From a virus, in IMG/VR virus record IMGVR_UViG_3300034063_000636, positions 44,215 through 108,214 of that record: a stretch of DNA of 64,000 nucleotides. One strand, written 5' to 3'. Position 1 is the first letter of the stretch. Each line of letters starts with the position of its first letter. The notes under the pieces are model-generated. The model worked only from the letters and a program-made list of their open reading frames with translations, had not been told where the DNA came from and did no database searches. Positions 3-57,372 of the stretch are shown piece after piece. A program made the position numbers and the translations under genes.

Positions 3-2354
3 ACAGTGCCAATTTATGGTATTAATGGAATTGACACTGTTATAACACCACAACAAGCAACAGCACTTCTTCGAATTGATATTAACAACTCTATAAATCG
101 CGCTCGAAGTTCAATTAGCGATGGTGTTTGGAACGGATTAAACGTTGCTCAAAAAGCAGGTTTGGCGTTTCATGCGTATCACATCGGTCTTAATGTGGAT
201 TTTGAGAGAATCGGTGTTCGTTCTGCAATCACTTCTGGCGACCTCGTTAGAGCAGCTCAGTTAATCAGTTCCGATAAACTCAAATCTTCAACTGGGAAAT
301 ATCTGATCAGTGAAGATTCGCTGTCACATATTGCTGCTAATCTATTCAAATCAATTCCAAAGTCATCATTGGCTGAGCAAAGAAGAAATACTTTAACAAA
401 AAGAAATCCAATCTCAGCTGCAGGGGCTGGACTTGGTGTTCAAATTCACGAATCAGATTTATCTGCAGATTCAGATGCAAAATCTCTAAAGTATCCGCTT
501 CCAGAAGAGCAAGGCAAGCCTTCATTGAATGATTTTGCAACCTCATTAGAAAAGAGCGTTACACAAAAATTCCGAGAGCGATCTTCAATCATTGCAATTG
601 GAGCAAATGATCAATCATGGTCAGAACCTGCCTCTCCATACATAGCTGAATATCCATATAACAAGGCTATGGAAACAGAATCTGGTCATGTGTTCGAACT
701 TGATGATACTCCTGGAAGTGAGCGTGTTCATCTAGCGCATAGATCTGGAAGTTTTGTTGAATTTTATCCAAGTGGAACTAAAGTAGAAAAAGTCGTCAAG
801 AGTAATTATAGAATTGTTCTCAACGATGATTATCTTTATGTTGCAGGAAAGGTTAATATTGTCTTAGAATCTAACGCTCATATTAAAGTCGTTGGTGATT
901 GTTTCTTGCAAGTCGAGAATAATCTAGAGGCAAATGTGAGTGCAAATATGAATGTATCGGTTGGTGGCGCATTTAATATGCGAGCCAATACTCTGCACTT
1001 CGACATTGCAAATACATCGACAATCACTGCTAATAATCAATACATTTCAGTTGATGATAAACTTATTATAAATTCGAATACTTCTAACATATCAACTGCG
1101 AATGATTTCACTCTTTACTCTAAATCAAATCAATACTTCAACGTTGCGAATACGATTCATTATAGATCTGGAAACGTGGCGATCCAATCCTCTGGAAATA
1201 TCTCAATCAACAGTGTAGGAAATGGATACTTCACTTCAAGTAATGTTCTTCACCTAAAAGGAAGTTCAACTCGAGTCACTGGATCCTCTGTTGAGATTAA
1301 TGGATTGTTAAATGCTGGTGCGACCAATATGGAAGCGACAGGATATGATTCGAACGGGGATTCTCATGTTCTATCTGTAGCAGGCAGCGGAGGAATTGCT
1401 GCATTGATACCAGATCCTTCCTTAACTCGCATGCCTGCGATAGATGCAAATGGTATTGTTTACTTGTATCATGAAGATAAAACGAACAAGGATAGAATGA
1501 GAAGAAATAGCAGTGAAGAGCAATTTGTTCTAATCGAAATCGCTGATCAGTTCCAAATTAATGTAAATCAAGTGCAAGAAGTTGTAAATGCGACATCTTA
1601 TCTTGAGAAACCAATTAAATTAGGAACTCCAACTGATACACAAAAACATCTAGAACCAGATAGAATCTTTAGATTTAAAGACTCGATAACAGAAGAAAAC
1701 AATAAGTTATTAAGAGATTATCTTGCAAATCCTTATGCATATTCTTCACCATATTCAAACGTTAAGAGATTTATTGCACCACCATCAACTTCAGGCTCTG
1801 ATGTGATCTTTAATGATGTTGTGGGAGAGAGTTTGATTGTGATTAATGATGGTGCGGATATATCTGCTTGGCTGAGAAAACAATTAGTTCTCGCAGCAAA
1901 CGGTTATTGGAGAGAAACTGGTGTTGAAATTTCTGGTAGAATCGAACCGTCGAATCCAAATATCACTGATCTCTGGAGAAATCTCGGATTCTCTAGAGAA
2001 TTTTGGAATTTGAGCGATCAATCGAGATGGGCAATCGCATTCGTCAACTTCGGATTGAAACAGAATGGCTATCGATATGTTCAGACTCCAAATCCAAGAG
2101 ATCTTGAAATTCGAATCGATGATTATCGTTTCACTCGTGTTAAGCCATCAGATGCTCAGCCTGGAGATGTTGTTTTGTGGAATAATGACCATACCAACTT
2201 CGTTTATGAAAACATAAATGGATCTCTAACCTTTATCGGAGGATCTCAACCACCGTATAACGGTAATATCGGTGATGGTCGCATTGGTGACGTCTCTCTT
2301 GTCAGCAGCGGAGGTGCGCAAATTGTTGCAATTCTTCGTCCGTCTAAGACATAA
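3..2354 (+). CDS. gp5: Baseplate hub / tail lysozyme spike (T4 gp5-like), 5'-truncated, with C-terminal CHAP/NlpC-like extension
   Basis: Frame is open to the window edge. T4-lysozyme-like helix (ITPQQATALLRIDIN...WNGLNVAQKAGL); gp5 signature EYPYNKAMETESGHVFELDDTPGSER; beta-helix-type repeats; lies before gp25. Confidence 0.9.
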   Translation, partial: TVPIYGINGIDTVITPQQATALLRIDINNSINRARSSISDGVWNGLNVAQKAGLAFHAYHIGLNVDFERIGVRSAITSGDLVRAAQLISSDKLKSSTGKYLISEDSLSHIAANLFKSIPKSSLAEQRRNTLTKRNPISAAGAGLGVQIHESDLSADSDAKSLKYPLPEEQGKPSLNDFATSLEKSVTQKFRERSSIIAIGANDQSWSEPASPYIAEYPYNKAMETESGHVFELDDTPGSERVHLAHRSGSFVEFYPSGTKVEKVVKSNYRIVLNDDYLYVAGKVNIVLESNAHIKVVGDCFLQVENNLEANVSANMNVSVGGAFNMRANTLHFDIANTSTITANNQYISVDDKLIINSNTSNISTANDFTLYSKSNQYFNVANTIHYRSGNVAIQSSGNISINSVGNGYFTSSNVLHLKGSSTRVTGSSVEINGLLNAGATNMEATGYDSNGDSHVLSVAGSGGIAALIPDPSLTRMPAIDANGIVYLYHEDKTNKDRMRRNSSEEQFVLIEIADQFQINVNQVQEVVNATSYLEKPIKLGTPTDTQKHLEPDRIFRFKDSITEENNKLLRDYLANPYAYSSPYSNVKRFIAPPSTSGSDVIFNDVVGESLIVINDGADISAWLRKQLVLAANGYWRETGVEISGRIEPSNPNITDLWRNLGFSREFWNLSDQSRWAIAFVNFGLKQNGYRYVQTPNPRDLEIRIDDYRFTRVKPSDAQPGDVVLWNNDHTNFVYENINGSLTFIGGSQPPYNGNIGDGRIGDVSLVSSGGAQIVAILRPSKT

Positions 2355-16501: not shown

Positions 16502-16726
16502 ATGTTAGTTAAGATAAAAGACAATGATGATCTTGCAAGAGATGTGAAGTCAAGAGCAATCTTGAATGTTAATAAAAACGTTTTGCTTAAAGATCAGATG
16601 TATCAAGAGAAACTAAAGAAACAACAAGAGGTAGAGTCCTCAATAAATACTCTCAGAGAAGAAGTATCTTCGATTAAAGGCGACATTTCTAAGATTCTAG
16701 AAATGTTGAGTTCCAGAGGTAAATAA
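16502..16726 (+). CDS. Small coiled-coil phage protein
   Basis: LARDVKSRAILN followed by a heptad segment (INTLREEVSSIKGDISKILEML). ATG at 16502 preferred over TTG at 16496. Confidence 0.75.
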   Translation: MLVKIKDNDDLARDVKSRAILNVNKNVLLKDQMYQEKLKKQQEVESSINTLREEVSSIKGDISKILEMLSSRGK

Positions 16727-17769
16727 TGGCGAACACAAATATTTCACATGTCCAATTAGTGAACACCTTTAATGAGTGGCGTGCAGCAACTAATGACTTA
16801 ATTGAAGATAGAAATATTCTTCGAAATGCTCATTATGTCAAAGATAATTCTTCTTTTGACATTGCAAACGGAACCATGACGATCAGCCGTTCAAGCAACG
16901 GCACAGTTCTAACAGTCGCAAACTCTGGTAACGTTGCTGTCGGTGGTTGGGTCAATGCAAATACTCTTGCAACAAACTCAGAACTCTGGTTTGGATTAAG
17001 AACTAGCGACATTGCTTCTGTCATTAAGATGACACAAGAGCCAGCAAATACTGTAGAGGCTGGAAACGCAACTTGGTATACTGCAAATCAGAAATCAAAT
17101 AATCCATATTACGGATTCACCTTCCACTCCAATGGCACAATGGTCATTGCGAATGAAGAGGAGAATGCAACTCAAGTGGTTGTCATCGGTGACTCTGCTT
17201 ACAATGTTTCTCCGACCAAAAATGGTACGATTTTTGGTGTCAGTACAATCGTTGGAACATCAGCACCAACAACAGGATATGAATCTGGTTGGCAACCCGT
17301 TCTAGACCTTCGAAGCAATTCTCTATTCATCATGCCAGTTGCTTCTGCAAATGCAGGCAATTGTTTGTATTACAACGTAACAACTGGCGAAATCACATAC
17401 TCAACTGCGCCAAGCGGTAATGTTCTTGCTGGTGATCCAATTCTAATCAACACTGCAGTTGATTCTGCAAACACTGTAAGACTAAATGTGTCAAACTGGT
17501 TCAAGTATACATTGACAGGATCATCTGGCAATCGTAATTTGACATTCACAAATCCTCCTGCTTCTGGCAATGCATATACGTTCACAATGATTGTGATTCA
17601 AGATGGAACAGGCGGTAAAACTCCAAATTGGACAAATACAGTGTATTGGGCTGGTGGACAAATTCCTCCGCCAACAACTGACGCAAGCGCACAGGATATC
17701 TGGACATTTACCACATATGATGGTGGAACAACATATATTGGCACACTTGCTGTTAAAGACGCGAGATAA
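16726..17769 (+). CDS. Tail fibre / adhesin stalk protein
   Basis: N-terminal NTFNEWR..TN motif; C-terminal domain (IQDGTGG..W...VYWAGG..P......DIWTF) resembles the C-terminus of 35757..37769. Confidence 0.7.
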   Translation: MANTNISHVQLVNTFNEWRAATNDLIEDRNILRNAHYVKDNSSFDIANGTMTISRSSNGTVLTVANSGNVAVGGWVNANTLATNSELWFGLRTSDIASVIKMTQEPANTVEAGNATWYTANQKSNNPYYGFTFHSNGTMVIANEEENATQVVVIGDSAYNVSPTKNGTIFGVSTIVGTSAPTTGYESGWQPVLDLRSNSLFIMPVASANAGNCLYYNVTTGEITYSTAPSGNVLAGDPILINTAVDSANTVRLNVSNWFKYTLTGSSGNRNLTFTNPPASGNAYTFTMIVIQDGTGGKTPNWTNTVYWAGGQIPPPTTDASAQDIWTFTTYDGGTTYIGTLAVKDAR

Positions 17770-17771
17770 TC

Positions 17772-19721
17772 ATGCCGAATAGTTTTGGCTTAAACAAAAC
17801 TTGGATTCCTGGTCCTTCCAGAGGAACAACGACATTCAATACTACTGGCAATATTAATATTGCTTATGGTAGAAATAAAACCACAGTTTCAGGTCGTGGT
17901 GGTTCTGGTTCAGGTGCTTCATACAACACTGTTCCAGGAACAACTAATCCCACTACATTTCCATACACACCAGCATCGTATAATACGGTTCCTGGAAATT
18001 TAAATCCAACAACTTATCCGTTTACTCCAGCATCATATAATACAGTGCCTGGAACGACAAATCCTACAACGTTTCCCTTTGTTCCTGCTAGTTATAATAC
18101 TGTGCCTGGAAATACAAATCCACCAAACTATCCTTACACACCAGATAGTTACAACACTGTTCCTGGAACAACCAATCCAACAGTGTATCCATATACTCCA
18201 GAAAGTTATAACACTGTTCCAGGAAATAGTAATCCGCCAAATTATCCATTTACTCCTGAATCATACAATACAGTGCCAGGAAACTTAAATCCAACCAATT
18301 ATCCATACACACCAGCTTCGTACAATACAGTTCCTGGAAACACTAATCCAACTAACTACCCATTCGTTCCTGCATCATATAATACTGTTCCTGGTAATTT
18401 GAATCCAACAGTGTATCCATATACACCAGAGAGTTACAACACTGTTCCTGGAAATACAAATCCAACAAACTATCCATATACACCAGCTTCCTATAATACT
18501 GTTCCTGGAAATACTAATCCAACTAACTATCCATATACCCCAGAAAGTTATAACACAGTTCCTGGAAATACAAATCCAACGAATTATCCGTACACTCCAG
18601 AGAGTTATAACACTGTAACAAACTATCCATATACTCCAGGCTCATATAACGCACCAACAGGTGTTAGTTGGAATTTGACTGCAATCGGACCAAGTTACGG
18701 TGGTGTTGCAACAATAATTGGTGACGGATTTGATACAAATTGCCCATCACCATATAGCACACCAACTCCGTTTGGTCCAGACGAATTCACATATGAATGT
18801 TTCCCAGCTGGAAATACTGAAAATCCTGCGAGTTATAACACAGTTACCAATTATCCATATACACCTGCGTCGTATAATACAGTTCCAGGAAATGTAAATC
18901 CAACCAATTATCCGTTTACCCCTGCATCGTACAATACAGTCCCAGGAAATTTAAATCCAACGAACTATCCTTATGTTCCTGCAAGTTATAACACTGTTCC
19001 TGGCAATTTAAATCCAACCAATTATCCATACACACCAGCATCGTATAATACAGTTCCTGGAAACTTAAATCCAACGAACTATCCTTATGTTCCTGCAAGT
19101 TATAACACTGTTCCAGGAAATGTAAATCCGACAGTGTATCCATATACTCCAGAAAGTTATAATACAGTTCCTGGTAACTTGAATCCGACTAATTATCCGT
19201 TTACTCCTGCATCGTATAATACGGTTCCTGGTAACAGCAATCCACCAACTTATCCATACACACCAGCGTCTTACAATACTGTTCCTGGGACAACAAATCC
19301 AACCAATTATCCGTATACACCAGCATCGTATAACACAGTATCAGGAAACTTAAATCCAACCAATTATCCATTCGTTCCTGCAAGTTATAACACGGTTCCA
19401 GGAACGACAAATCCACCGTCGTATCCATTCGTGCCTGCAAGTTATAATACTGTGCCAGGAACAACAAATCCAACAGTGTATCCATTCGTCCCTGCAAGTT
19501 ATAATACTGTGCCAGGAACAACAAATCCAACAGTGTATCCATTTACTCCAGGAGTTCCTGGAACACCAACAACTGTTCTTGGTGTATACTTCCCAGGCGG
19601 TGTTGCTGGCGTTGCTCCATATGTTCCAGAAACTGTAGTGAATTATTGGGACTATCCAGATAATGCGACCTATCCAGTCACTGTTCCAACAGGTGCATAC
19701 ATAGTAGTGAAGATTGAATAA
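17772..19721 (+). CDS. Pro/Tyr/Thr/Asn-rich symmetric tandem-repeat protein (putative hairpin fibre)
   Basis: 49 aa head + 12x19 aa + 13 aa + 63 aa unique core (2 Cys) + 13 aa + 12x19 aa + 55 aa tail = 649 aa. Confidence 0.85.
   Translation: MPNSFGLNKTWIPGPSRGTTTFNTTGNINIAYGRNKTTVSGRGGSGSGASYNTVPGTTNPTTFPYTPASYNTVPGNLNPTTYPFTPASYNTVPGTTNPTTFPFVPASYNTVPGNTNPPNYPYTPDSYNTVPGTTNPTVYPYTPESYNTVPGNSNPPNYPFTPESYNTVPGNLNPTNYPYTPASYNTVPGNTNPTNYPFVPASYNTVPGNLNPTVYPYTPESYNTVPGNTNPTNYPYTPASYNTVPGNTNPTNYPYTPESYNTVPGNTNPTNYPYTPESYNTVTNYPYTPGSYNAPTGVSWNLTAIGPSYGGVATIIGDGFDTNCPSPYSTPTPFGPDEFTYECFPAGNTENPASYNTVTNYPYTPASYNTVPGNVNPTNYPFTPASYNTVPGNLNPTNYPYVPASYNTVPGNLNPTNYPYTPASYNTVPGNLNPTNYPYVPASYNTVPGNVNPTVYPYTPESYNTVPGNLNPTNYPFTPASYNTVPGNSNPPTYPYTPASYNTVPGTTNPTNYPYTPASYNTVSGNLNPTNYPFVPASYNTVPGTTNPPSYPFVPASYNTVPGTTNPTVYPFVPASYNTVPGTTNPTVYPFTPGVPGTPTTVLGVYFPGGVAGVAPYVPETVVNYWDYPDNATYPVTVPTGAYIVVKIE
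17919..19553 (+). repeat. 57-bp coding tandem repeat, two arrays of 12 units
   Basis: Unit SYNTVPG(N/T)xNP(T/P)xYP(Y/F)(T/V)P(A/E), mostly diverged at synonymous sites; interrupted by the unique core at about 18642-18830. Confidence 0.95.
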
Positions 19722-19775: not shown

Positions 19776-20366
19776 ATGCCATCATTCACAAAGTACATAA
19801 AACCACTTCCTCAGTTTTGTATTGTTGATAATTATTTCACTGAAGAAGAAGTCGATAAAATTATTGATCTTGAAGAATTGCAAGAATTCAGTGAGGGTAA
19901 GATGGGAACTGGTCCATCAACAACCACTAATAAACAATATCGCGACAGTGACATTTCTTGGTTGAAATGGAGCCCAGATTCTAGATGGATATTTGATAAA
20001 TTTGGTTCATTGATGGGTCAAGTAAACCACTCTCACTTCATGTATGATATTGATGGTTTTGATGCGTTTCAATACACCAAGTATAAACCAAAGCAACATT
20101 ATAATTGGCACTTTGATGCCTTCACAGAATTTCATGGCTTCGAACGAAAGATTAGTGCAGTGGTAATTTTATCAGACCCCAAAAAATATTCTGGTGGAGA
20201 ATTTCAAATTGTTGCGGATGGAAATATAGAAAAACCGCACTCAATAAAACCACCAAAAGGTTCTGTAATATTCTTTGCTTCTTGGATGCCGCATAGAGTT
20301 GCGCCAGTTAAATCTGGAGTTCGTAAATCTTTGGTTGCTTGGATTATGGGTAAAAGAGTATGCTAA
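19776..20366 (+). CDS. 2OG-Fe(II) oxygenase, prolyl-4-hydroxylase-like
   Basis: HYNWHFD (HxD), RKIS.V..LSDP..Y.GGEF and MPHRVAPVKSGVRKSLVAW (distal His, 2OG-binding Arg). Confidence 0.88.
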   Translation: MPSFTKYIKPLPQFCIVDNYFTEEEVDKIIDLEELQEFSEGKMGTGPSTTTNKQYRDSDISWLKWSPDSRWIFDKFGSLMGQVNHSHFMYDIDGFDAFQYTKYKPKQHYNWHFDAFTEFHGFERKISAVVILSDPKKYSGGEFQIVADGNIEKPHSIKPPKGSVIFFASWMPHRVAPVKSGVRKSLVAWIMGKRVC

Positions 20367-21088
20367 ACAAATTGATTCGTGTTTTTAAAAATGATGTGAT
20401 TGAATTTTACTGTCACCCAAAGTTTGAGAATGTCATTCCTGAACCAAAGCCAGCAATCAAATATTTGCCTGAGTGGTTTAGAATTATTCCTCCAGTTTCA
20501 AAGACTCGGAGAGATGAATACAATGACTTTGCGATGAATGCTAAAAAGTGTTTCCCAATGATTGATGCAATGTCTTTGGGATATACAATACCATTGTGTG
20601 GTGATATTCATGTCATGGTCAATAACGATATGACAGAAATGAAGTATACAAGCCCACCAGAAATGAAATTGGCAGATAGCCATAACGTTGAACAAATTGG
20701 TGGAGAGTCAGCCCCAGGATTTCCAATCAATCCGATCAAGTTTATCAATTATTGGATTATTAAGACTGCTCCAGGCTGGTCGACATTGTTTATTCCTCCA
20801 ATTAATCATGTTGGAACTCCATTTACTTGTTTGGGTGGATTAGTTGACACTGATAGATATCCAAAGGAAGTTAATTTTCCAGCAATTTGGAATCAGCCTG
20901 GTTTTGATGGATTAATTCGTGCAGGAACTCCTCTGGTGACTGCAATCCCAATTAAGAGAAATTCATTTCCGAAAAAACCAAAAGTCAGAAAAATTAAAGA
21001 TAAAGAATTTAATGAGATTGAATTGATTCGAAAGAAACAAGTGACCAGAAAAAATGTATACACAAATGAATTGAGAGATGAACGATGA
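20360..21088 (+). CDS. Hypothetical protein, possible degenerate dUTPase-like fold
   Basis: KKCFPMIDAMSLGY, GGLVDTDRY and IRAGTPLVTAIP; paralogous to the next gene. Confidence 0.55.
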   Translation: MLNKLIRVFKNDVIEFYCHPKFENVIPEPKPAIKYLPEWFRIIPPVSKTRRDEYNDFAMNAKKCFPMIDAMSLGYTIPLCGDIHVMVNNDMTEMKYTSPPEMKLADSHNVEQIGGESAPGFPINPIKFINYWIIKTAPGWSTLFIPPINHVGTPFTCLGGLVDTDRYPKEVNFPAIWNQPGFDGLIRAGTPLVTAIPIKRNSFPKKPKVRKIKDKEFNEIELIRKKQVTRKNVYTNELRDER

Positions 21089-21903
21089 AATTTTTTGATT
21101 TTTTTAAACCTAAAGAAACATTTAATGATTCGATTGACGATGAGATTAAGGAAATCTCAAACACTTCTGTTGTTCAATCGACTATTGGTAGAAACAAGTT
21201 AGAATTTATCGATTCATCAGAACTCGTATTTGCTAGTTTACCAATTCAATTAGCAAAAGATGTTCCTGTAAACTCGCAAGCACATGTAGAAAAGCTCGGA
21301 AATAAGTTCACATTTCCAGTCTGCCCTGGCATGTTTGACTATTCGCGACTTGGCTACATTGTTCCAGCCTGGTCAGACTATCATTTTAAGATAAATAAAG
21401 CTGGATGTGCTGCATTAGTTGGTGGGGGACAAAAAGCATCTCCATTTAAGCCTCCAGTTCCGATGGCAACTGATGTTGTCGATGGTCTTTTTAAATTAAG
21501 CGACGGAATTCCACTTAAAACATATAATATCAATTCTCCTTGGAAAATATTTTCTTACGACAAAGATATATCAGCATTACTTCTTCCTGCTTGGTATCAT
21601 GCAGACGTAGAGTTTTTAGATAATTTTTATGTTTATCCTGGAGTTGTTGATTATAATACATTTCATACTATGAATGTCATTCTTTCTCCAAAAAGAAAGT
21701 GTGAGTATACGATTAAAGCGGGAGATCCTTTATTACACGTCATTCCGTTTTATAATAAACAAATTGAATGTGGTTATGGACCACCAAACATAGAACAAAA
21801 AAGCATATTATCATACGATCCTAAAATCCACGAAACGCAATTTTATCGAAAGAATCATATGATTAAAAAGAGTTTCGCACTAGAAGAAAGCAATAAAGAA
21901 TGA
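21085..21903 (+). CDS. Hypothetical protein, paralog of 20360..21088
   Basis: CPGMFDYSRLGY, PGVVDYN and IKAGDPLLHVIP align with the motifs of the upstream gene. Confidence 0.55.
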   Translation: MKFFDFFKPKETFNDSIDDEIKEISNTSVVQSTIGRNKLEFIDSSELVFASLPIQLAKDVPVNSQAHVEKLGNKFTFPVCPGMFDYSRLGYIVPAWSDYHFKINKAGCAALVGGGQKASPFKPPVPMATDVVDGLFKLSDGIPLKTYNINSPWKIFSYDKDISALLLPAWYHADVEFLDNFYVYPGVVDYNTFHTMNVILSPKRKCEYTIKAGDPLLHVIPFYNKQIECGYGPPNIEQKSILSYDPKIHETQFYRKNHMIKKSFALEESNKE

Positions 21904-22847
21904 AGATATTTGTAAGCATATGCTCATACAGAGACCCTCTGTTAGTATACACTCTAAAAGCATTAATGCAGACCAAGTCTGCAATTACAGAAGTTGTGTA
22001 CGGCATATTTGAACAAAATGAAAAAGAAAATAGTTTAGAAACTCTATTTCCAGATCTAGTCGCCAGAAGCGATGTAAAATATAAACGAATCGATCCACAA
22101 TACTCGGAAGGTGTTGGTTGGGCTCGAAATATTAATGCTCTCCAGTTAACTGACGAGGATTTTTATTATCAGATCGACTCTCACATGGTTTTCGATAAGA
22201 ATTGGGATCGCGATTTAATTAACGATTATAAAGAAGGCTGTAGAGCGATCGAGTCAAACAGAGTCATTATCAGTTCGAACTGTAAAAATTTCGAGATGGT
22301 CGATGGTAATGTCGTTTTAGAGCATGGCATGGACTATACATGCAGAGCAAGATTCTATCAGTTTAATCCAAATCTTTGGCTTTTTGCTCACGGCGAACAT
22401 ATTCCTCCAACTGAAACCGTGATGCCAGCGATACACATCTTTGCTGGAAATATGTTTACACACTCTGATTGGGTTCGAAATGTCGGAATCAATCCTAGAA
22501 TATTCTTTCATGGAGAGGAGCAAGCGATAACTCTCTCATCGTTTGCTGCAGGATATCGATTTTTCCACGGAAAGAGGATGTCGTGCTATCACTATAAAGG
22601 ATCTAATGAACATACATCAAAGCAGGACTTTAAACCTGTTGTTCCTTTAGAGATCATTGAAGAGAGAAAACGTAGATCAGAAATTGAATTTAGAGCATTT
22701 TTAGACTCTCTCGAGGACGATTTACTCGAGGAATACCGAGTCTACTCTGGCGTGAATTATATAAATAAGAAAATAGAAGAACGTGCCATAACCCGAGTGA
22801 TTAAACCAAGCATCGATATTGACTGGGAAGTAGGCGATTCTGAATAA
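21900..22847 (+). CDS. GlcNAc transferase, Gnt1/GT60-like (Skp1-hydroxyproline GlcNAc transferase family)
   Basis: IFVSICSYRDP, GVGWAR, YYQIDSHMVFDKNWD and FFHGEE match family motifs (IFVSIxSYRD, QIDSHMxF..WD, FxGEE). Confidence 0.85.
   Translation: MKIFVSICSYRDPLLVYTLKALMQTKSAITEVVYGIFEQNEKENSLETLFPDLVARSDVKYKRIDPQYSEGVGWARNINALQLTDEDFYYQIDSHMVFDKNWDRDLINDYKEGCRAIESNRVIISSNCKNFEMVDGNVVLEHGMDYTCRARFYQFNPNLWLFAHGEHIPPTETVMPAIHIFAGNMFTHSDWVRNVGINPRIFFHGEEQAITLSSFAAGYRFFHGKRMSCYHYKGSNEHTSKQDFKPVVPLEIIEERKRRSEIEFRAFLDSLEDDLLEEYRVYSGVNYINKKIEERAITRVIKPSIDIDWEVGDSE
22760..22767 (+). promoter_or_regulatory. Canonical T4 late promoter TATAAATA
   Basis: Exact TATAAATA inside the 3' end of the GT gene, about 105 bp upstream of the next structural gene. 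Confidence 0.6.
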
Positions 22848-30662: not shown

Positions 30663-31157
30663 ATGCCAACAACATTACAATTTAGACGTTATGGAACTGC
30701 AGCCACTGCATCAGTTACTGGTGCAAATGGTGAATTGACGATTGATACTGATAAAGAAACAGTCGTCGTTCATGACGGATCCACGGCTGGTGGGTATGCG
30801 CTCGTAAGAGATGGCGCTGCAACGATCAGCGACACGTTCGGAAATCTTCGTGGAATTCCGATTTCTGGTTCAGAAAAATCTACCAGTTATACGCTCGCTG
30901 CAAATGATGTTGGTCGTTTGGTGATCGTAACAACTAGCGGAAGCATTACAGTTCCGAACACCACATTTGGTGGTGGTAATGTTGTTTCAGTTTACAATAA
31001 CACAAGCAGCAACGTTGTGCTTACATTGAGCACTGCGGCAGCATATGTTTCTGGCAATAATACAAATAGAACATCTCTTAATCTAGCAACTCGCGGCATT
31101 GCAACAGTTCTTTATATTAGTTCAAATTCTTGCGTAATTACAGGAAGCGTATCATAA
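30663..31157 (+). CDS. Short tail fibre protein with Mtd-N-like N-terminal domain
   Basis: LQFRRYGTA...GANGELTIDTDKETVVVHDG.TAGG. Confidence 0.75.
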   Translation: MPTTLQFRRYGTAATASVTGANGELTIDTDKETVVVHDGSTAGGYALVRDGAATISDTFGNLRGIPISGSEKSTSYTLAANDVGRLVIVTTSGSITVPNTTFGGGNVVSVYNNTSSNVVLTLSTAAAYVSGNNTNRTSLNLATRGIATVLYISSNSCVITGSVS

Positions 31158-31158
31158 G

Positions 31159-32829
31159 ATGGGTGGTATTCATTTAGCATTGATGGCTTCGTTTTCTACC
31201 ACTGGTGTCAGTTTCGGCACAGGAACTGTCATTCAATCATTCACATCAACTGGTTCTTGGACATGCCCAACAGGCGTTACTTCTGTTGAATGTCTTTTAG
31301 TTGCTGGTGGTGGCGGTGGAACAAATGACCTTGCTGGCGGAGCAGGTGCAGGTGGAGTTGTATACAATAATTCAGTTTCAGTAACACCAGGAACAACATA
31401 TACAATTACAGTTGGTGCTGGTGGAGCTGCTGCCAGCAATGGTGTGAATTCAAGTGCATTCAGTATGACAACAGCTGTTGGTGGTGGGACAAGCGGTGCT
31501 TATAATGGTGGATCAGGATCTGCTGGTAAAAATGGCGGATCAGGTGGAGGTGGCGGCGCAACACCATCATACAGTGGTCCAGGCGGTAGCGCTGTATATC
31601 CAGGATCCCCATTTATTAGTGCAACAAGACAAGGATATGATGGCGGTCAGGGAACTGCAGGTGGTGGTTCTGGTGGTTATGGCAGATCTGGCGGTGGCGG
31701 TGGAGCTGGAGAAGCAGGTAAAGCAGGATCAGCTGGAAGCGGTGGTGGAGCAGGAACCAATGTACACAGCACGTTACTTCAATCTGCTGGTTTTGGTGTA
31801 TTGTCTGGTGGATTATATTACATAGCAGGTGGTGGTGGCGGCGCTGAAGATGGCGGACCAGGAGGAGTTGGTGGTGGTGGAAATGGCGGATATCGAAACG
31901 GCGCACTCGCAACTGCAGGTCAAACAAACACTGGTGGTGGAGGAGGTGGGAATTGGTATGCTGCAGCTGGCGGTGCTGGTGGTTCTGGATTAGCAATTAT
32001 TAAGTACACCCAACCAACTGTTGTTGGAACTGTTTATACATTTACCACATCTGGAACTTGGACTGCTCCAACTGGCGTCACTTCCGTTGATTATCTCGTT
32101 GTTGCTGGTGGTGGAGGAGGTGGAACTATTGGCGGAGGCGGTGGTGCTGGTGGATACCGAACAGGGACTGGATTTGCAGTTACACCTGGAAACACTTATA
32201 CCATTACTGTCGGATCTGGTGGTGCAGGATCACCAAATAGTGTTAGTTCAACTAATCCACAAGCATCCAATGGATCTAGTTCAGTTTTTGATACAATAAC
32301 GTCTGCAGGTGGCGGCGGTGGCGGATCGTATAATGCTCCTGCAGGTGCTGGCAATAATGGACGTGCTGGTGGATCAGGCGGTGGTGGCGGTTTAAATGGT
32401 GGACCATCGTCAGGTGGTGCTGGCAATACTCCATCAACATCACCATCTCAAGGAAATAATGGTGGAGCAGCAACACCTTCTGCTGCAGCGGGTCAGGGCG
32501 CAGGTGGCGGAGGTGGAGCTGGAGCGGCAGGTGATAGTGGTGGAACAGCACCTTCTGCTGGTGGTAATGGCGGTAATGGTGCAGCATCTACGATCACAGG
32601 CACATCTGTAACTTACGCTGGTGGCGGTGGTGGAGCTGGCAACGTTGCCCCAGCTCCTGCAGGCACTGGCGGATCAGGTGGTGGTGGTGCTGGATCAAAT
32701 ACTCTTAACGGGACAAATGGAGCCGCTGGTCTTGGTGGTGGCGGCGGTGGCGGTGGCAATGGTCCTTCTGGTTATATGGGTGGCGGCACTGGTGGATCAG
32801 GTATAGTAATCATTAAGGTTGCAGCATAA
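31159..32829 (+). CDS. Glycine-rich adhesin, 2 domains
   Basis: Two FT..G.WT.PTGVTSV..L.VAGGGGG...GGSG..IIK units. Confidence 0.8.
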   Translation: MGGIHLALMASFSTTGVSFGTGTVIQSFTSTGSWTCPTGVTSVECLLVAGGGGGTNDLAGGAGAGGVVYNNSVSVTPGTTYTITVGAGGAAASNGVNSSAFSMTTAVGGGTSGAYNGGSGSAGKNGGSGGGGGATPSYSGPGGSAVYPGSPFISATRQGYDGGQGTAGGGSGGYGRSGGGGGAGEAGKAGSAGSGGGAGTNVHSTLLQSAGFGVLSGGLYYIAGGGGGAEDGGPGGVGGGGNGGYRNGALATAGQTNTGGGGGGNWYAAAGGAGGSGLAIIKYTQPTVVGTVYTFTTSGTWTAPTGVTSVDYLVVAGGGGGGTIGGGGGAGGYRTGTGFAVTPGNTYTITVGSGGAGSPNSVSSTNPQASNGSSSVFDTITSAGGGGGGSYNAPAGAGNNGRAGGSGGGGGLNGGPSSGGAGNTPSTSPSQGNNGGAATPSAAAGQGAGGGGGAGAAGDSGGTAPSAGGNGGNGAASTITGTSVTYAGGGGGAGNVAPAPAGTGGSGGGGAGSNTLNGTNGAAGLGGGGGGGGNGPSGYMGGGTGGSGIVIIKVAA

Positions 32830-33345: not shown

Positions 33346-35718
33346 ATGGCTTCGAAGTTATTTGCCTTTCAAAGTTTTGCATCAAGCACGAGAATTTTCA
33401 ATTCTCGCGCGACACCTGCCGCAGTTGGAGCGCAAGAAATTGTTGTAGAAACTTTCGCCAATACAACTACATGGACTGCACCAGAAGGCGTCACATCAGT
33501 TGAATATCTTGTTATTGGCGGTGGAGGCGGAGGGGGTGGAAGATTCGTCGGTGGTGGCGGGGGTGCTGGCGGATTTCGAGCAGGCACTGGTTATGCTGTA
33601 ACACCAAATACTTCTTATACAATCACTGTGGGCGCTGGCGGTAATGGTGCAACCTCACCAAGCATATATGGATCAAATGGATCATCTTCTGTATTTGATA
33701 CGATTACATCTGCTGGCGGTGGTGCAGGAGCTGGATTAGACAATTCTGCACCAGGAACTGCTCAAAATGGACGCGCAGGTGGCTCTGGCGGCGGCGGAAG
33801 TGGTTTTGCAGGAGGGGCTGGCGGCACTGGAAACACCCCTTCAACTTCTCCATCGCAAGGTAATAACGGTGGAAATGGTAGTTCTTCTGCTCCTTTCTAT
33901 GCTGGAGGCGGTGGTGGCGGTGCGGGTGCTGTTGGAACTAATGGCAGCGGATCAAGCGCAGGTACTGGTGGAAATGGAACAGCATCTTCAATTACTGGAA
34001 CTTCTGTAACTTATGCAGGTGGAGGTGGGGGTGGTTCAGATGTTTCTGGTGGTTCTGGTGGAACTGGAGGTGGAGCCAATGGTGGAGCAGGCGGTTCAAA
34101 TGCTCCGAGCGCAGCACCAGCAAGCACTGGCAGCGGTGGTGGTGGATCTGGTGGTGGACCTTCTCCAAGTGGATATAACGGCAGCAGTGGCGGTTCAGGC
34201 GTAGTAATTTTAAAATACACAAAACCAAACGTAAGTGCAAATGCCAATGTCTGGGTATTCAGAACATCAACATCATGGACTGCGCCAACAGGAGTCTCGC
34301 TGATCGATTATTTGATCGTCGGTGGTGGCGGTGGTGGAGCTGGTTATGGTGCAGGCGGTGCAGGTGGGTTTAGAACAGGCACTGGATACTCAGTATCACC
34401 AGCAACATCTTATACTATTACAGTCGGATCAGGTGGTGCTGCAGGTGATATTTCAAATAGAGGCGCAAATGGTGCTGCCTCTATTTTTGCATTAACATCA
34501 AATACATCAGCAAATGTTTCTTCTGCTGGTGGCGGTGGTGGTGGATGCAATTCAGGAACACAAACTGGATTAAGTGGCGGAAGCGGTGGTGGCGGTGGTG
34601 GCGGAACATCTCCTGCTGGTGCTGGTGGAACAGGTAATACACCTGCAGTTGCACCAGCACAAGGTAACAATGGTGGCACTGGTGGAGTTTCTCCTGGAAA
34701 TTCAGGTGGAGGTGGTGGTGGTGCTGCAGCTGCAGGATCTAATGGAGCAACAAATACTGGTGGTAATGGCGGAAACGGTACTGCTTCTACATTGTCTGGT
34801 TCTTCGGTAACTTATGCTGGCGGTGGTGGTGGTGGAACTAATAATGGAAGCCCTGCTACAGCTGGTAATGGTGGAACTGGTGGTGGTGGAAATGGAAGTA
34901 ATGGCAATCCAAGTTCTATTGCCCAAGCTGGCACCGCAAATCTTGGCGGAGGTGGTGGAGGAGGAGGATTCCCTAGCAATCAAACAGGAAATACTGGCGG
35001 CTCTGGTATCGTTATTATCAAAGCATATGCAACCGCAAACGCAAACCTTGCAACATTCACTTCATCTGGAACATGGACAGCACCCACTGGAGCAACACAA
35101 GTTGAATACCTTGTGATTGCTGGCGGAGCTGGCGGTAATGGCGGTGGTGGTGGTGCTGGTGGATTGAGAACAGGTTCTGGATTATCAGTTTCGCCTGGAT
35201 CATCATATACAGTTACAATTGGTGGCGGTGGTGCTGCAGGAAGTAATGGAACTAACTCAGTGTTTAGCACTATTACATCACTCGGTGGTGGTGTTGATAG
35301 TGCTGGTGGAAGACAAGTAACAGGTGGTTCTGGTGGTGGTGCTGAAAGACAATATCCATCAACAGTTGGTCTCGGTACTCCAGGTCAAGGATTTAATGGT
35401 GGCACTGGAAATGCTCCTGCTAATGCATCTGGTGGAGGCGGCGGAGCTGGTGGTGTTGGCGGAAATGCATCTTCAACTGGCGGCGTAGGTGGACCAGGAG
35501 CATTCTCGACGATCAGCGGATCATCAGCAATTTATGCTGGTGGTGGTGGCGGTGGTGGTCAAAGTGGCGGAGGATCAGGAGGAGCTGGTGGTGGTGCATC
35601 GGGTGGTGTTGGTCCAGCAAGTTCTGCATCACCTAATACTGGTGGTGGTGGCGGAGGAATTTACACCAGTGGTGCTGGTGCAGGTGGTTCTGGTATTGTT
35701 ATTATTCGTTGGTCGTAA
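33346..35718 (+). CDS. Glycine-rich adhesin, 3 domains
   Basis: Three WTAP.G...EYL..GGGGGG units; ends in IVIIRWS. Confidence 0.8.
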   Translation: MASKLFAFQSFASSTRIFNSRATPAAVGAQEIVVETFANTTTWTAPEGVTSVEYLVIGGGGGGGGRFVGGGGGAGGFRAGTGYAVTPNTSYTITVGAGGNGATSPSIYGSNGSSSVFDTITSAGGGAGAGLDNSAPGTAQNGRAGGSGGGGSGFAGGAGGTGNTPSTSPSQGNNGGNGSSSAPFYAGGGGGGAGAVGTNGSGSSAGTGGNGTASSITGTSVTYAGGGGGGSDVSGGSGGTGGGANGGAGGSNAPSAAPASTGSGGGGSGGGPSPSGYNGSSGGSGVVILKYTKPNVSANANVWVFRTSTSWTAPTGVSLIDYLIVGGGGGGAGYGAGGAGGFRTGTGYSVSPATSYTITVGSGGAAGDISNRGANGAASIFALTSNTSANVSSAGGGGGGCNSGTQTGLSGGSGGGGGGGTSPAGAGGTGNTPAVAPAQGNNGGTGGVSPGNSGGGGGGAAAAGSNGATNTGGNGGNGTASTLSGSSVTYAGGGGGGTNNGSPATAGNGGTGGGGNGSNGNPSSIAQAGTANLGGGGGGGGFPSNQTGNTGGSGIVIIKAYATANANLATFTSSGTWTAPTGATQVEYLVIAGGAGGNGGGGGAGGLRTGSGLSVSPGSSYTVTIGGGGAAGSNGTNSVFSTITSLGGGVDSAGGRQVTGGSGGGAERQYPSTVGLGTPGQGFNGGTGNAPANASGGGGGAGGVGGNASSTGGVGGPGAFSTISGSSAIYAGGGGGGGQSGGGSGGAGGGASGGVGPASSASPNTGGGGGGIYTSGAGAGGSGIVIIRWS

Positions 35719-38904: not shown

Positions 38905-39231
38905 ATGCCAACAAATTATAAAGTATTAGGGCAAGCAGCAGTAACAACAGCGGTAGCAAATGTCTATACTGTCCCTGCTGCAACTCAAGCAGTTGTTTCA
39001 ACGGTTGTGATTACAAATAGAACAAGTTCAAATGTAAACTACAGACTCGCAGTTCAACCTGCTGGAGCAGCATTAGCCAATCAGCACTACATTGCTTATG
39101 ATGCAATTGCTGCAGCAAGCGATTCAATTGCTTTGACTTTGGGGCTCACTCTTGGCAACACTGATGTGATTTCAGCAAACGCATCAGCAAACAGTTTATC
39201 AATTAGCATCTTCGGTTCAGAAATCACCTAA
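38905..39231 (+). CDS. Adaptor-like small beta protein
   Basis: Paralog of 33018..33344. Confidence 0.75.
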   Translation: MPTNYKVLGQAAVTTAVANVYTVPAATQAVVSTVVITNRTSSNVNYRLAVQPAGAALANQHYIAYDAIAAASDSIALTLGLTLGNTDVISANASANSLSISIFGSEIT

Positions 39232-41993: not shown

Positions 41994-42329
41994 ATGGCAG
42001 AAACATTTAAATTTGTAAACGCAACGCTAACGACAGCAGCGATTACTTCACAAAACCTTTATACTTCCCCAGCACTTACAACTTCGATTGTGTTCATGGG
42101 GCAGATTGCAAATAGTGATGGCGCGAATGCTGCAATGTTCTCTGTCACTGCAACTGATGCCAGTGGAGCAAGCACAAAGTATTTGGCAAGAGACATTCCT
42201 GTTCCTGCTGATTCTGCAACGACATTCTTGACTGGCAAACTCGTTCTCGAAGCTGGCGATTATATCTCCGCAAATGCAAATTCTAACGCACACATCGATG
42301 TTTCACTCAGCATTCTTCAATTGACATGA
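41994..42329 (+). CDS. Adaptor-like small beta protein (divergent)
   Basis: LYTSPA.TTSIV...IAN...KLVLEAGD.I; same size and position as the two adaptors above. Confidence 0.7.
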   Translation: MAETFKFVNATLTTAAITSQNLYTSPALTTSIVFMGQIANSDGANAAMFSVTATDASGASTKYLARDIPVPADSATTFLTGKLVLEAGDYISANANSNAHIDVSLSILQLT

Positions 42330-56819: not shown

Positions 56820-57372
56820 TCAACACAATATTTTTTCTGTTCCTATTTGGGGATATATAATTAATAGCGAGAAATATCACTCGAGCGATTATCTAGATTT
56901 AATTTCACATCTAGAAGAAACAGAGCCATCTAAAAAGAAAAGTAATTTTGGTGGGTGGCAATCTAGAAGTGATCTTCATAAAGAAGGATTGTTCCAAGAG
57001 TTTAAAAAGGTTATATTAATTCTTGCAAATGATATTGCTAAATCGCAAGACCTACCAGAATTACATTTAATCAGTATGTGGGCGAACATAAATTACAAAC
57101 ATTCATTTAACGCAGCGCATACACACGAAGGAATATTATCTGGTGTGTTTTATTTGAAGACTCCACCCAACTGCGGCAAATTAATACTCGAGAGCCCAGC
57201 AGTAAGAGCCGATACTAGTCCATATAAAATTAGAAATTATCCAGTTGAACCAAGCCCATTAAGTTGTATTATATTTCCAAGTTGGCTTTCGCATTATGTT
57301 GAACCAAATATGAGTGATGAGAAGAGAATTAGTTTGAGTTTTAATTTTGATATTAAGAGAGAAATATCATGA
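56809..57372 (+). CDS. Putative 2OG-Fe(II) oxygenase (TIGR02466-like)
   Basis: WANIN....N..HTH....SGVFY...FPSWL.H.V.PN.S...RISLSFN. Confidence 0.82.
   Translation: MHPNQHNIFSVPIWGYIINSEKYHSSDYLDLISHLEETEPSKKKSNFGGWQSRSDLHKEGLFQEFKKVILILANDIAKSQDLPELHLISMWANINYKHSFNAAHTHEGILSGVFYLKTPPNCGKLILESPAVRADTSPYKIRNYPVEPSPLSCIIFPSWLSHYVEPNMSDEKRISLSFNFDIKREIS

What the first reader, a model, noticed from the sequence alone, without database searches (positions are those of the whole stretch)
17919..19553. Mirror-symmetric repeat protein: 12 repeats, half repeat, Cys-pair core, half repeat, 12 repeats
Seen: both arms have exactly 12 full 19-aa units, and the same 6-aa-deleted unit (SYNTVTNYPYTP) flanks each side of a 63-aa core containing the only two Cys. 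Variants are mirrored: GTT units at N-arm 1, 3, 5 match C-arm 12, 10, 8, and the unique GNSNPP unit is at N6 and C7. GT-versus-GN status agrees in 11 of 12 mirror pairs. Inference: the chain goes out and returns as an antiparallel hairpin stalk, presenting a disulfide-closed tip while the N- and C-termini form the base. This differs from the usual parallel trimeric fibre.
Basis: partly seen in the sequence, partly recalled or inferred. Interest (0 to 1): 0.88.

Follow-up and report, generated by a model that had tools for sequence, protein, structure and literature searches.

The report
Folded-back phage fibre with matched arms
A virus of aquatic bacteria encodes a probable host-recognition fibre whose chain seems to run out to a swappable tip and back to its start, because its two repeat arms stay equal in length in over a hundred relatives.

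Summary
ORF 17772-19721 (649 aa) reads: 49-aa N-domain, 12 units of 19 aa, a 13-aa short unit, a 63-aa core holding the only two Cys, a short unit, 12 units, 55-aa C-domain. Both arms are 241 aa.

It belongs to an unnamed family with no Pfam, PHROG or PDB relative, found only in uncultured T4-like aquatic myoviruses. The arms use very different repeats across the family, yet their lengths match. In 64 proteins with one Cys pair, r = 0.98 over 20-337 aa. Sister-pair contrasts give r = 0.93. The match also holds when the two arms use unrelated repeats. Three close alleles have 12+short/short+12, 11+short/short+11 and 11/11.

The core is the exchangeable part: 22-39% identity between proteins otherwise 92-100% identical. 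AlphaFold2 appears to place the N- and C-domains in one small beta-sandwich. A two-chain prediction gives weak support.

So an out-and-back stalk with a variable tip is well supported. Not shown or not general:
- Contacts between unit i and unit 25-i are not shown.
- Mirror order of unit variants is not a family rule.
- The Cys pair is not universal.

It is probably a receptor-binding fibre. A P4H-like oxygenase, two DUF6065 genes and a Skp1-type GlcNAc-transferase gene follow it in nearly every locus that reaches far enough downstream. Other first-reader notes of this scan describe this same stretch of the same genome; none is on other DNA.

The parts
17772..19721 (+). Whole gene, 649 aa plus stop: the folded-back repeat fibre protein
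   Evidence: ORF list. Only copy in the 108-kb virus record.
17772..17918 (+). N-domain, aa 1-49; conserved in the family; three beta-strands in the model
   Evidence: HMM match E 1e-25. pLDDT 65-91. Invariant K9, W11, F22, Y32, G33.
17919..18602 (+). N-arm: 12 full 19-aa units
18603..18641 (+). N-side short unit, 13 aa, with a six-residue deletion
   Evidence: Present on both sides in the window and L001, absent on both sides in L059.
18642..18830 (+). Core or tip domain, aa 291-353, with C324 and C343; the most variable and exchangeable module
   Evidence: pLDDT 80-96 with four strands. Core swapping in relatives. Core alignment.
18831..18869 (+). C-side short unit, 13 aa
18870..19553 (+). 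C-arm: 12 full 19-aa units
19554..19718 (+). C-domain, aa 595-649; conserved in the family; five beta-strands; appears to be modelled together with the N-domain as one sandwich
   Evidence: HMM E 4.5e-29. pLDDT 76-89. Model range in the structure search. Two-chain prediction.
16726..17769 (+). Upstream neighbour, 347 aa, with a tail-fibre-type C-terminal part; ends 2 nt before the fibre gene's ATG; candidate attachment partner (inferred)
   Evidence: phrog_9017 and phrog_7760 'tail fiber protein' on aa 241-343. A homologous C-terminal part lies directly upstream in most related loci.
19776..20366 (+). 2OG-Fe(II) oxygenase of the P4H-like family, directly downstream; candidate modifier (inferred)
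   Evidence: PF13640 E 1.4e-18. Nearest solved: PKHD-type hydroxylases and prolyl 4-hydroxylases. Found downstream in every related locus that reaches far enough.
20360..21903 (+). Two DUF6065-like paralogues (20360-21088 and 21085-21903)
   Evidence: PF19541 E 7e-5, below Pfam's cut-off. phrog_7084. Conserved synteny.
21900..22847 (+). Glycosyltransferase of Pfam family 'GlcNAc' (PF11397)
   Evidence: E 8e-32. Conserved synteny.

Best explanation
The gene encodes a virion fibre or adhesin of an uncultured T4-like aquatic myovirus, built as an out-and-back stalk.

Proposed build:
- The first 49 and last 55 residues fold together into one small beta-sandwich, the base (predicted).
- From the base the chain runs out through one repeat arm, forms a small globular tip, and returns through a second arm of equal length (inferred).
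- The base probably docks on the conserved C-terminal part of the tail-fibre-like protein encoded just upstream (inferred from gene order only).
- The tip is the exchangeable specificity module, most likely the receptor-binding site (inferred).
- The arms are a spacer. Its length changes only by matched gains or losses in both arms.

The conformation inside the arms is unknown. The only usable model suggests one short beta-strand per unit, stacked as in a beta-solenoid or beta-roll. In that case the stalk would be two rods side by side rather than a two-stranded ribbon.

The P4H-like oxygenase and the GlcNAc-transferase encoded downstream may hydroxylate and glycosylate the arms, which are 21% proline (inferred, untested).
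For: 1. Anatomy as described.

2. Arm lengths match across the family.
- 51 distinct proteins, with the core located by a finder that does not assume a centre: N-arm 83-309 aa, r = 0.979, mean difference about 10 aa.
- 64 distinct proteins with exactly two Cys between the end domains: the distance from the N-domain to Cys1 against the distance from Cys2 to the C-domain gives r = 0.978 over 20-337 aa.
- 25 sister pairs: r = 0.93 for the two length differences, and 14 of 16 informative pairs change in the same direction.
- 110 distinct proteins: Spearman 0.92, median relative difference 6.5%.

3. The match does not come from duplication. In 35 proteins whose arms share at most 10% of recurrent 3-mers, Spearman is 0.87. 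An example is the L007 clade, with 11-aa units in one arm and 10-aa units in the other. The window's repeats are only 73% identical at DNA level.

4. Three close alleles have arms of 241/241, 222/222 and 209/209 aa. Short units are present on both sides or on neither. The GNSNPP unit is sixth from the outer end on both arms in all three.

5. The termini appear to be modelled together. Targets of 78-95 residues align 68-74 residues at rmsd about 3 A to model range 16/17..649. In the two-chain prediction of aa 1-52 with aa 590-649 the verdict was weak support: score 0.46, best of 3 controls 0.00. That mark was reached by 58 of 80 solved complexes and 2 of 110 mismatched pairs. At 0.60 or under it was reached by only 7 of those 80 and by both mismatches that passed. 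The runs agree in at least 93% of contacts and the partner's pLDDT is at least 69.

6. The tip is the variable module.
- L028a against L047a: N-domain 100%, arms 95 and 92%, C-domain 95%, core 22%.
- P0005 against P0010: 100, 99, 96 and 100%, core 39%.
- L001 has neighbouring proteins 99-100% identical to the window's. Its fibre DNA is identical through the N-domain and units 1-5, then diverges.

7. Context: the gene lies in a structural module with gp6-like and gp8-like baseplate genes and several fibre-like genes.

8. Conserved gene order: tail-fibre-like gene, one or two family genes, oxygenase, two DUF6065 genes and the transferase, in nearly all related loci that reach far enough. The transferase is placed elsewhere or not found in a few.
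Against: - No direct evidence of arm-to-arm contact. The window's arms have pLDDT about 35.
- In L053 the C-arm (pLDDT 65-79) matches beta-solenoids over a contiguous stretch, residues about 204-326, so the matches involve the C-arm alone.
- I could not read coordinates. That the N- and C-domains touch is inferred from alignment ranges. Structure-search Z values are only 4-6.
- The two-chain prediction is weak support only.
- Mirror order of unit variants is not general. Direct order is significant in L001, L003, L030, L016b and L054.
- Members with two or more tip-like modules do not fit a single hairpin: P0015, P0018, P0045, P0047, P0051, P0077.
- Not shown here: virion location, oligomeric state, receptor binding, any modification.
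Confidence: 0.62

Rival explanations
1. A linear dumbbell or rod. Each arm is an independent beta-solenoid, the core is a central knob, and the two termini lie at opposite ends. The arms do not lie side by side.
For: AlphaFold2 models the L053 C-arm as a solenoid over a contiguous stretch. It matches CAP, pentapeptide-repeat and antifreeze beta-helices at Z 8-9 with about 120 residues aligned. Unit lengths, or small multiples of them, of 14-24 aa fall in the range of solenoid coils (own knowledge).
Against: It gives no reason for equal arms over a 17-fold range, for matched indels, or for short units present on both sides or neither. The N- and C-domains appear to be modelled as one sandwich, with weak support from the two-chain prediction.
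Confidence: 0.13
2. The arms are extended, flexible, heavily modified Pro-rich linkers (polyproline-II type, like extensins or mucins). They form a loose loop that tethers a binding domain, without ordered pairing.
For: The arms are 21% Pro, 19% Thr and 17% Asn, with no Lys, Arg or His. They are modelled at low confidence. P4H-like oxygenase and PF11397 transferase genes follow in nearly every related locus that reaches far enough.
Against: A loose loop needs neither equal arms nor the tip at its exact centre. Eleven of 19 positions are invariant, including Tyr, Asn and Val, despite heavy synonymous divergence; this points to a defined fold. L053 is modelled with a regular strand in each unit.
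Confidence: 0.12
3. The symmetry is a by-product of history, such as duplication of one arm or concerted evolution between arms, and has no structural meaning.
For: Direct-order similarity between the arms is significant in several members: L003 z 3.5, L030 z 4.1, L001 z 2.4. By eye, P0039 carries a long direct repeat shared by both arms.
Against: Arms built of unrelated repeats still match in length. The window's units are only 73% identical at DNA level, with no direct or mirror signal between arms. Sister pairs change both arms together.
Confidence: 0.05

Closest known systems
Receptor-binding tip of the T4 long tail fibre, gp37 (needle, head and collar domains; PDB 2XGF, Bartual et al. 2010; recalled from my own knowledge, paper not held here)
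   Same: A fibre of a T4-type phage in which the chain runs out to a small distal head that contacts the receptor and then returns. Outgoing and returning segments are of similar length and the C-terminus ends near the start of the needle. The distal part is the host-range determinant.
   Different: gp37 is a trimer whose needle is held by iron ions bound to His-x-His motifs. PMC6957217 states seven coordinated iron atoms along the needle. This protein has no His at all. It has no sequence match to any PDB chain and no Pfam or PHROG hit. Its arms are long tandem repeats of up to about 310 aa. Its base is formed by both chain ends rather than by a long N-terminal shaft.
gp38 adhesin at the fibre tip of T2- and S16-type phages (polyglycine-II sandwich with hypervariable loops; own knowledge)
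   Same: A separate small adhesin encoded next to a fibre gene. An unusual repeat-built scaffold presents hypervariable, exchangeable segments at its distal end.
   Different: gp38 uses glycine-rich motifs and runs up and down about ten times. Here the arms are 5% Gly and there is one excursion with one tip. No sequence relation was found.
Beta-solenoid and beta-roll repeat rods (pentapeptide-repeat proteins, RTX beta-roll, beta-helical antifreeze proteins)
   Same: Short tandem units with a conserved aromatic residue, Asn and turn-forming Pro or Gly. The L053 C-arm model matches such folds at Z 8-9 with about 120 residues aligned.
   Different: Those are single continuous rods. None is known to me as two equal rods joined by a tip and closed by a split base domain. 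The window's own arms were not modelled with confidence.
Skp1 hydroxyproline-GlcNAc pathway (prolyl 4-hydroxylase plus Gnt1) and viral P4H acting on Pro-rich repeats (PBCV-1; own knowledge)
   Same: A P4H-like 2OG oxygenase (PF13640) and a transferase of Pfam family PF11397 are encoded beside a protein that is 19% proline.
   Different: No modification has been shown. The nearest solved oxygenases are PKHD-type hydroxylases of unknown substrate. Two DUF6065 genes of unknown role lie between the two enzymes.

Membership tests
T4 gp37-type fibre tip (needle domain) | Chain runs out to a distal head and returns beside itself | tested here: inconclusive
   Indirect support only: matched arms, N- and C-domains apparently modelled together, weak two-chain support. 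No contacts seen.
T4 gp37-type fibre tip (needle domain) | His-x-His motifs binding iron along the needle | tested here: not met
   No His in the whole protein and no H-x-H motif.
T4 gp37-type fibre tip (needle domain) | Detectable sequence similarity to gp37 or its Pfam families | tested here: not met
   Profile of 54 family members against all PDB sequences: nothing at E up to 1. Pfam and PHROGs: no family.
T4 gp37-type fibre tip (needle domain) | Homotrimer | not tested
Beta-solenoid / beta-roll repeat proteins | One coil per about 14-24 residues, with stacked short strands | tested here: inconclusive
   L053 C-arm: one 3-residue strand per 10-aa unit, pLDDT 65-79, Z 8-9 to CAP, pentapeptide-repeat and antifreeze beta-helices. 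Window arms pLDDT about 35.
Collagen-like phage fibres | Runs of Gly-X-Y triplets | tested here: not met
   No run of four or more G-x-x triplets.
gp38-type adhesin (polyglycine-II sandwich) | Glycine-rich motifs forming the scaffold | tested here: not met
   Arms are 5.4% Gly, one per unit.
C1q/TNF-like or other jelly-roll base domain | Eight-stranded beta-sandwich of that topology | tested here: inconclusive
   Collagen VIII NC1, C1qA and APRIL at Z 4.3-4.6; nucleoplasmin at Z 5.7. This is the range of common arrangements.
Skp1-type Hyp-GlcNAc modification system (neighbouring genes) | P4H-like 2OG-Fe(II) oxygenase present | tested here: met
   PF13640 E 1.4e-18, 68 bits against a cut-off of 27. 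PDB relatives include prolyl 4-hydroxylases 4iw3 and 5c5t.
Skp1-type Hyp-GlcNAc modification system (neighbouring genes) | Transferase of the Gnt1 family (PF11397) | tested here: met
   PF11397 E 8e-32, 111 bits against a cut-off of 21.
Skp1-type Hyp-GlcNAc modification system (neighbouring genes) | Hydroxyproline and GlcNAc actually present on the fibre | not testable with these tools
   Needs mass spectrometry of the protein.

The most novel reading that the evidence does not exclude
The two arms zip together unit by unit into a two-armed repeat stalk not yet described. It can be built from like or unlike repeats and is closed by a base domain split between the chain ends. Its length is tuned in evolution by paired gains and losses of units, and its tip is exchanged as a cassette. 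The stalk is stiffened by proline hydroxylation and GlcNAc addition carried out by the phage's own enzymes. That would be the first such modification system for a phage virion protein.
Probability: 0.25. Interest if true: 0.85.

Novelty: new variant of a known kind. Interest (0 to 1): 0.68.

Why it matters
Host recognition by the abundant T4-like phages of lakes and seas is poorly understood. Most of their fibre genes have no known relatives.

This family gives a clear modular plan of base, adjustable stalk and exchangeable tip. That plan could explain how these phages change host range.

The matched arms are an unusually clean case of co-evolution in repeat number within one protein. That by itself predicts a three-dimensional arrangement that can be tested with a small recombinant member.

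If the neighbouring oxygenase and transferase act on the fibre, it would show a eukaryote-style hydroxyproline glycosylation in a phage particle. A stalk whose length and tip can be changed independently would also be a useful scaffold for engineered binding proteins.

Tried and rejected
- Whole gene region by megablast, and the whole protein and the C-domain by tblastn, against 50,697 phage records: no match. The low-complexity filter may mask the repeats, so this does not prove absence. No cultured phage could be named as a carrier.
- Pfam and PHROGs on the protein: no family.
- PDB sequences with a family profile: nothing. The same for the upstream protein.
- Foldseek against PDB with both models: nothing at E 0.001 or below.
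- ESM Atlas: the sequence is held but has no model and no usable neighbour.
- Core finder with a reduced alphabet: failed and was replaced.
- Mirror order of unit variants as a family-wide rule: rejected. Mean z is 0.77 for mirror and 0.24 for direct, and several members are clearly direct.
- A heterotypic rule, one arm 'PGN' type and the other 'GGN' type: seen in several short members but not consistent, so not claimed.
- Equality of unit number rather than residue number in the L007 clade: the counts (26/28, 24/25, 20/22, 18/18) and the lengths (N about 6-8% longer) cannot tell the two apart.
- Literature searches found no description of this family, of DUF6065, or of hydroxyproline on phage fibres.
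- The Bartual 2010 gp37 paper is not held, so the gp37 chain path rests on my memory.
Full report
**What is there**

The finding lies in one ORF, 17772-19721 on the + strand, 649 aa. Splitting the protein at each unit start gives this layout:
- a 49-aa N-domain;
- 12 units of exactly 19 aa;
- a 13-aa unit lacking six residues;
- a 63-aa non-repeat core holding the only two Cys (C324, C343);
- the same short unit again;
- 12 more 19-aa units;
- a 55-aa C-domain.

Both arms are 241 aa. The finding's coordinates are the first and last base of the repeats. TRF reports both arrays at period 57.

The arms are 21% Pro, 19% Thr, 17% Asn and 14% Tyr. They have no His, Lys, Arg, Cys, Met or Trp. Eleven of 19 positions are invariant in all 24 units. 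Yet units are only 73% identical at DNA level, and 46% of sites with the same residue use different codons. The repeats are therefore old and held by selection on the protein.

**Context**

The window is part of a 108-kb IMG/VR virus record estimated 63% complete. It has one copy of the gene. The surrounding genes are a T4-type structural module:
- gp6-like and gp8-like baseplate wedge proteins;
- DUF4815/phrog_358 giants;
- several fibre-like proteins.

The gp8-like protein is about 30% identical to those of marine cyanomyoviruses and a Pelagibacter myovirus. No cultured phage in the collection matched the gene region or the protein.

**A family**

A search of 5.8 billion proteins gave 21 relatives, all unnamed. 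Scans of IMG/VR and of JGI metagenomes gave 57 and 10 loci. A profile search of 1.84 billion representatives gave 154 hits at E 0.001 or below, many of them short proteins or fragments.

All full-length members share the N-domain, the C-domain and a central non-repeat segment. The arms differ widely, with units of 7-8, 10-11, 14, 19 or 22 aa. The family has no Pfam, PHROG or PDB relative.

**The key test: do the arms co-vary?**

I located the core with a finder that looks only for the longest stretch without recurrent 3-mers. It does not assume a centre.
- In 51 distinct proteins the N-arm ranges from 83 to 309 aa. It correlates with the C-arm at r = 0.979, with a mean difference of about 10 aa.
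- A second marker is fully objective. In 64 distinct proteins with exactly two Cys between the end domains, I compared two distances: N-domain to the first Cys, and second Cys to C-domain. They correlate at r = 0.978 over 20-337 aa, with a constant offset of 23 ± 18 aa.
- To allow for relatedness I took 25 non-overlapping nearest-relative pairs. The two length differences correlate at r = 0.93. Fourteen of 16 informative pairs change in the same direction.
- Over 110 distinct proteins Spearman is 0.92 and the median relative difference is 6.5%.

The clear exceptions carry two or more tip-like modules: P0015, P0018, P0045, P0047, P0051, P0077. In P0015 the first two arms, read by eye, have about seven units each and flank the first core. 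That fits a hairpin followed by an extra domain near the base.

**Equal arms are not a duplication artefact**

In 35 proteins the two arms share at most 10% of their recurrent 3-mers, yet their lengths still match (Spearman 0.87, median difference 8%). One example is the L007-L054 clade, which has 11-aa units in the N-arm, 10-aa units in the C-arm and only a 5-20 aa turn between them. In the window there is neither direct nor mirror similarity between the arms at DNA level.

**Micro-evolution**

L001 is essentially the same phage. Its neighbouring proteins are 99-100% identical and the downstream kilobase is 99.7% identical at DNA level. Its fibre has 11 full units plus a short unit on each side. 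Its DNA is 100% identical to the window through the N-domain and units 1-5. It then drops to 58-90% until the end of the gene. This is a recombination cassette covering the inner N-arm, the tip, the C-arm and the C-domain.

L059 has 11 units on each side and no short unit on either side. So three alleles have arms of 241/241, 222/222 and 209/209 aa. In all three the GNSNPP unit is sixth from the outer end on both arms. The outer part of the stalk is a fixed block, and units are gained or lost near the tip on both sides together.

**The mirror order of variants**

With the short units included, the window's unit order is closer to mirror than to shuffled order (z 4.05), and direct order is not (z -0.9). 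On the 12 × 12 full units alone the mirror sum has p = 0.06 at protein level and no signal at DNA level. The GT/GN agreement of 11/12 has p = 0.018 under free placement but 0.2 once an outer/inner gradient is granted (my count).

Across 48 family members the picture is mixed. Some are mirror: L006, P0006, L016a, L050. Several are clearly direct: L003, L030, L016b, L054 and L001 itself. Mirror order is therefore not the family rule. Equal length is.

**The tip**

The core is the least conserved module and comes in unrelated types. These are a Cys-pair type like the window's, a type without Cys, and a bare turn.

Proteins that are otherwise nearly identical carry different cores:
- L028a against L047a: N-domain 100%, arms 95 and 92%, C-domain 95%, core 22%.
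- P0005 against P0010: 100, 99, 96 and 100%, core 39%.

Conversely, the window's core type (56-63% identity) sits on stalks made of quite different repeats in L028a, P0001 and L027a.

Many phages carry two family genes in tandem. In L016 one has a Cys-pair core and the other does not.

This is the pattern of a swappable specificity module, as in receptor-binding proteins.

**Structure predictions**

AlphaFold2 on the window protein with 22 sequences gives confident N-domain, core (pLDDT up to 96, four strands) and C-domain. The arms come out at about 35.

I cannot read coordinates. In the Foldseek-independent structure search, single small beta-sandwich targets of 78-95 residues align 68-74 residues at about 3 A rmsd. 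The model range runs from residue 16 or 17 to residue 649. This indicates that the two end domains are packed as one sandwich. The Z values of 4-6 say nothing about ancestry.

A two-chain prediction of aa 1-52 with aa 590-649 was judged weak support:
- score 0.46, best of three controls 0.00;
- the mark was reached by 58 of 80 solved complexes and 2 of 110 mismatched pairs;
- at 0.60 or under, it was reached by only 7 of those 80 and by both mismatches that passed;
- the runs agree in at least 93% of contacts, and the partner's pLDDT is at least 69.

AlphaFold2 on the short relative L053 gives pTM 0.41. One 3-residue strand occurs in each 10-aa unit of the C-arm (pLDDT 65-79), and strands occur every 10-11 residues in the outer N-arm (pLDDT about 50). 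The C-arm stretch alone matches CAP, pentapeptide-repeat and antifreeze beta-helices at Z 8-9 with about 120 residues aligned.

If that is right, each arm is a beta-solenoid-like rod. The stalk would then be two rods of equal coil number side by side, not a two-stranded ribbon. This remains a hypothesis.

**Neighbours**

In nearly all related loci that reach far enough, the gene order is the same:
- a tail-fibre-like protein with a conserved C-terminal part;
- one or two family genes;
- a P4H-like 2OG-Fe(II) oxygenase (PF13640);
- two DUF6065-like genes;
- a transferase of Pfam family PF11397, the family of the Skp1 hydroxyproline GlcNAc-transferase.

In a few loci the transferase lies elsewhere or was not found.

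This supports, but does not show, that the proline-rich arms are hydroxylated and glycosylated. Other first-reader notes of this scan made the same suggestion for this same stretch.

**Verdict**

That core is a chain that goes out and comes back, a tip in the middle of the sequence, and both ends at the base.

Not shown:
- unit-to-unit contacts;
- the disulfide;
- the oligomeric state;
- virion location;
- receptor binding.

The nearest known analogue is the T4 gp37 tip, where the chain also returns. This protein is not a member of that family: it has no His-x-His motifs and no sequence relation. I class it as a new variant of a known kind, a phage fibre or adhesin with a new, strictly length-matched two-arm architecture.

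Noticed in passing
window 19776-22847: An oxygenase (PF13640), two DUF6065-like genes and a PF11397 'GlcNAc' transferase form a block directly downstream of the fibre gene. The block is kept in nearly all related loci that reach far enough; the transferase is placed elsewhere or not found in a few.
   Followed up: partly
window 20360-21088: The DUF6065-like protein has 30-36% identical homologues covering about 95% of its length in 50 phage-collection records. Almost all are haloarchaeal tailed viruses (HF1, HRTV, HJTV and others).
   Followed up: no
window 17772-18203 versus L001:6001-6432: A sharp mosaic boundary. The N-domain and repeat units 1-5 are 100% identical at DNA level between the window and L001. 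Identity then falls to 58-90% until the end of the gene, and the downstream kilobase is 99.7% identical again.
   Followed up: yes
window 30663-32829: A 164-aa protein with an Mtd_N domain (major tropism determinant N-terminal domain, E 2e-9) is followed by a 556-aa protein with a Gly_rich_2 domain (E 2e-39). This may be a second host-recognition module.
   Followed up: no
window 33346-35718, 39231-41789, 42326-44953: Three large paralogues all match phrog_2295 (E 1e-125 to 1e-147) and, more weakly, a 'tail fiber assembly' PHROG.
   Followed up: no
window 57369-58610: A 413-aa protein joins a ferrochelatase-labelled PHROG domain (aa 7-180) to a second 2OG-Fe(II) oxygenase domain (aa 235-410).
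   Followed up: no
P0015, P0018, P0045, P0047, P0051, P0077: Family members with two or three tip-like modules (CPxP-type Cys pairs) and more than two arms. In P0015 the first two arms, read by eye, have about seven units each and the third is short.
   Followed up: partly
L044:5992-7560 and P0013: A variant of the family whose arms are rich in Cys: 22 Cys in L044, against none in the window's arms.
   Followed up: no
L016, L018, L023, L024, L027, L028, L047: Two family genes in tandem. In L016 one has a Cys-pair core and the other a core without Cys.
   Followed up: partly
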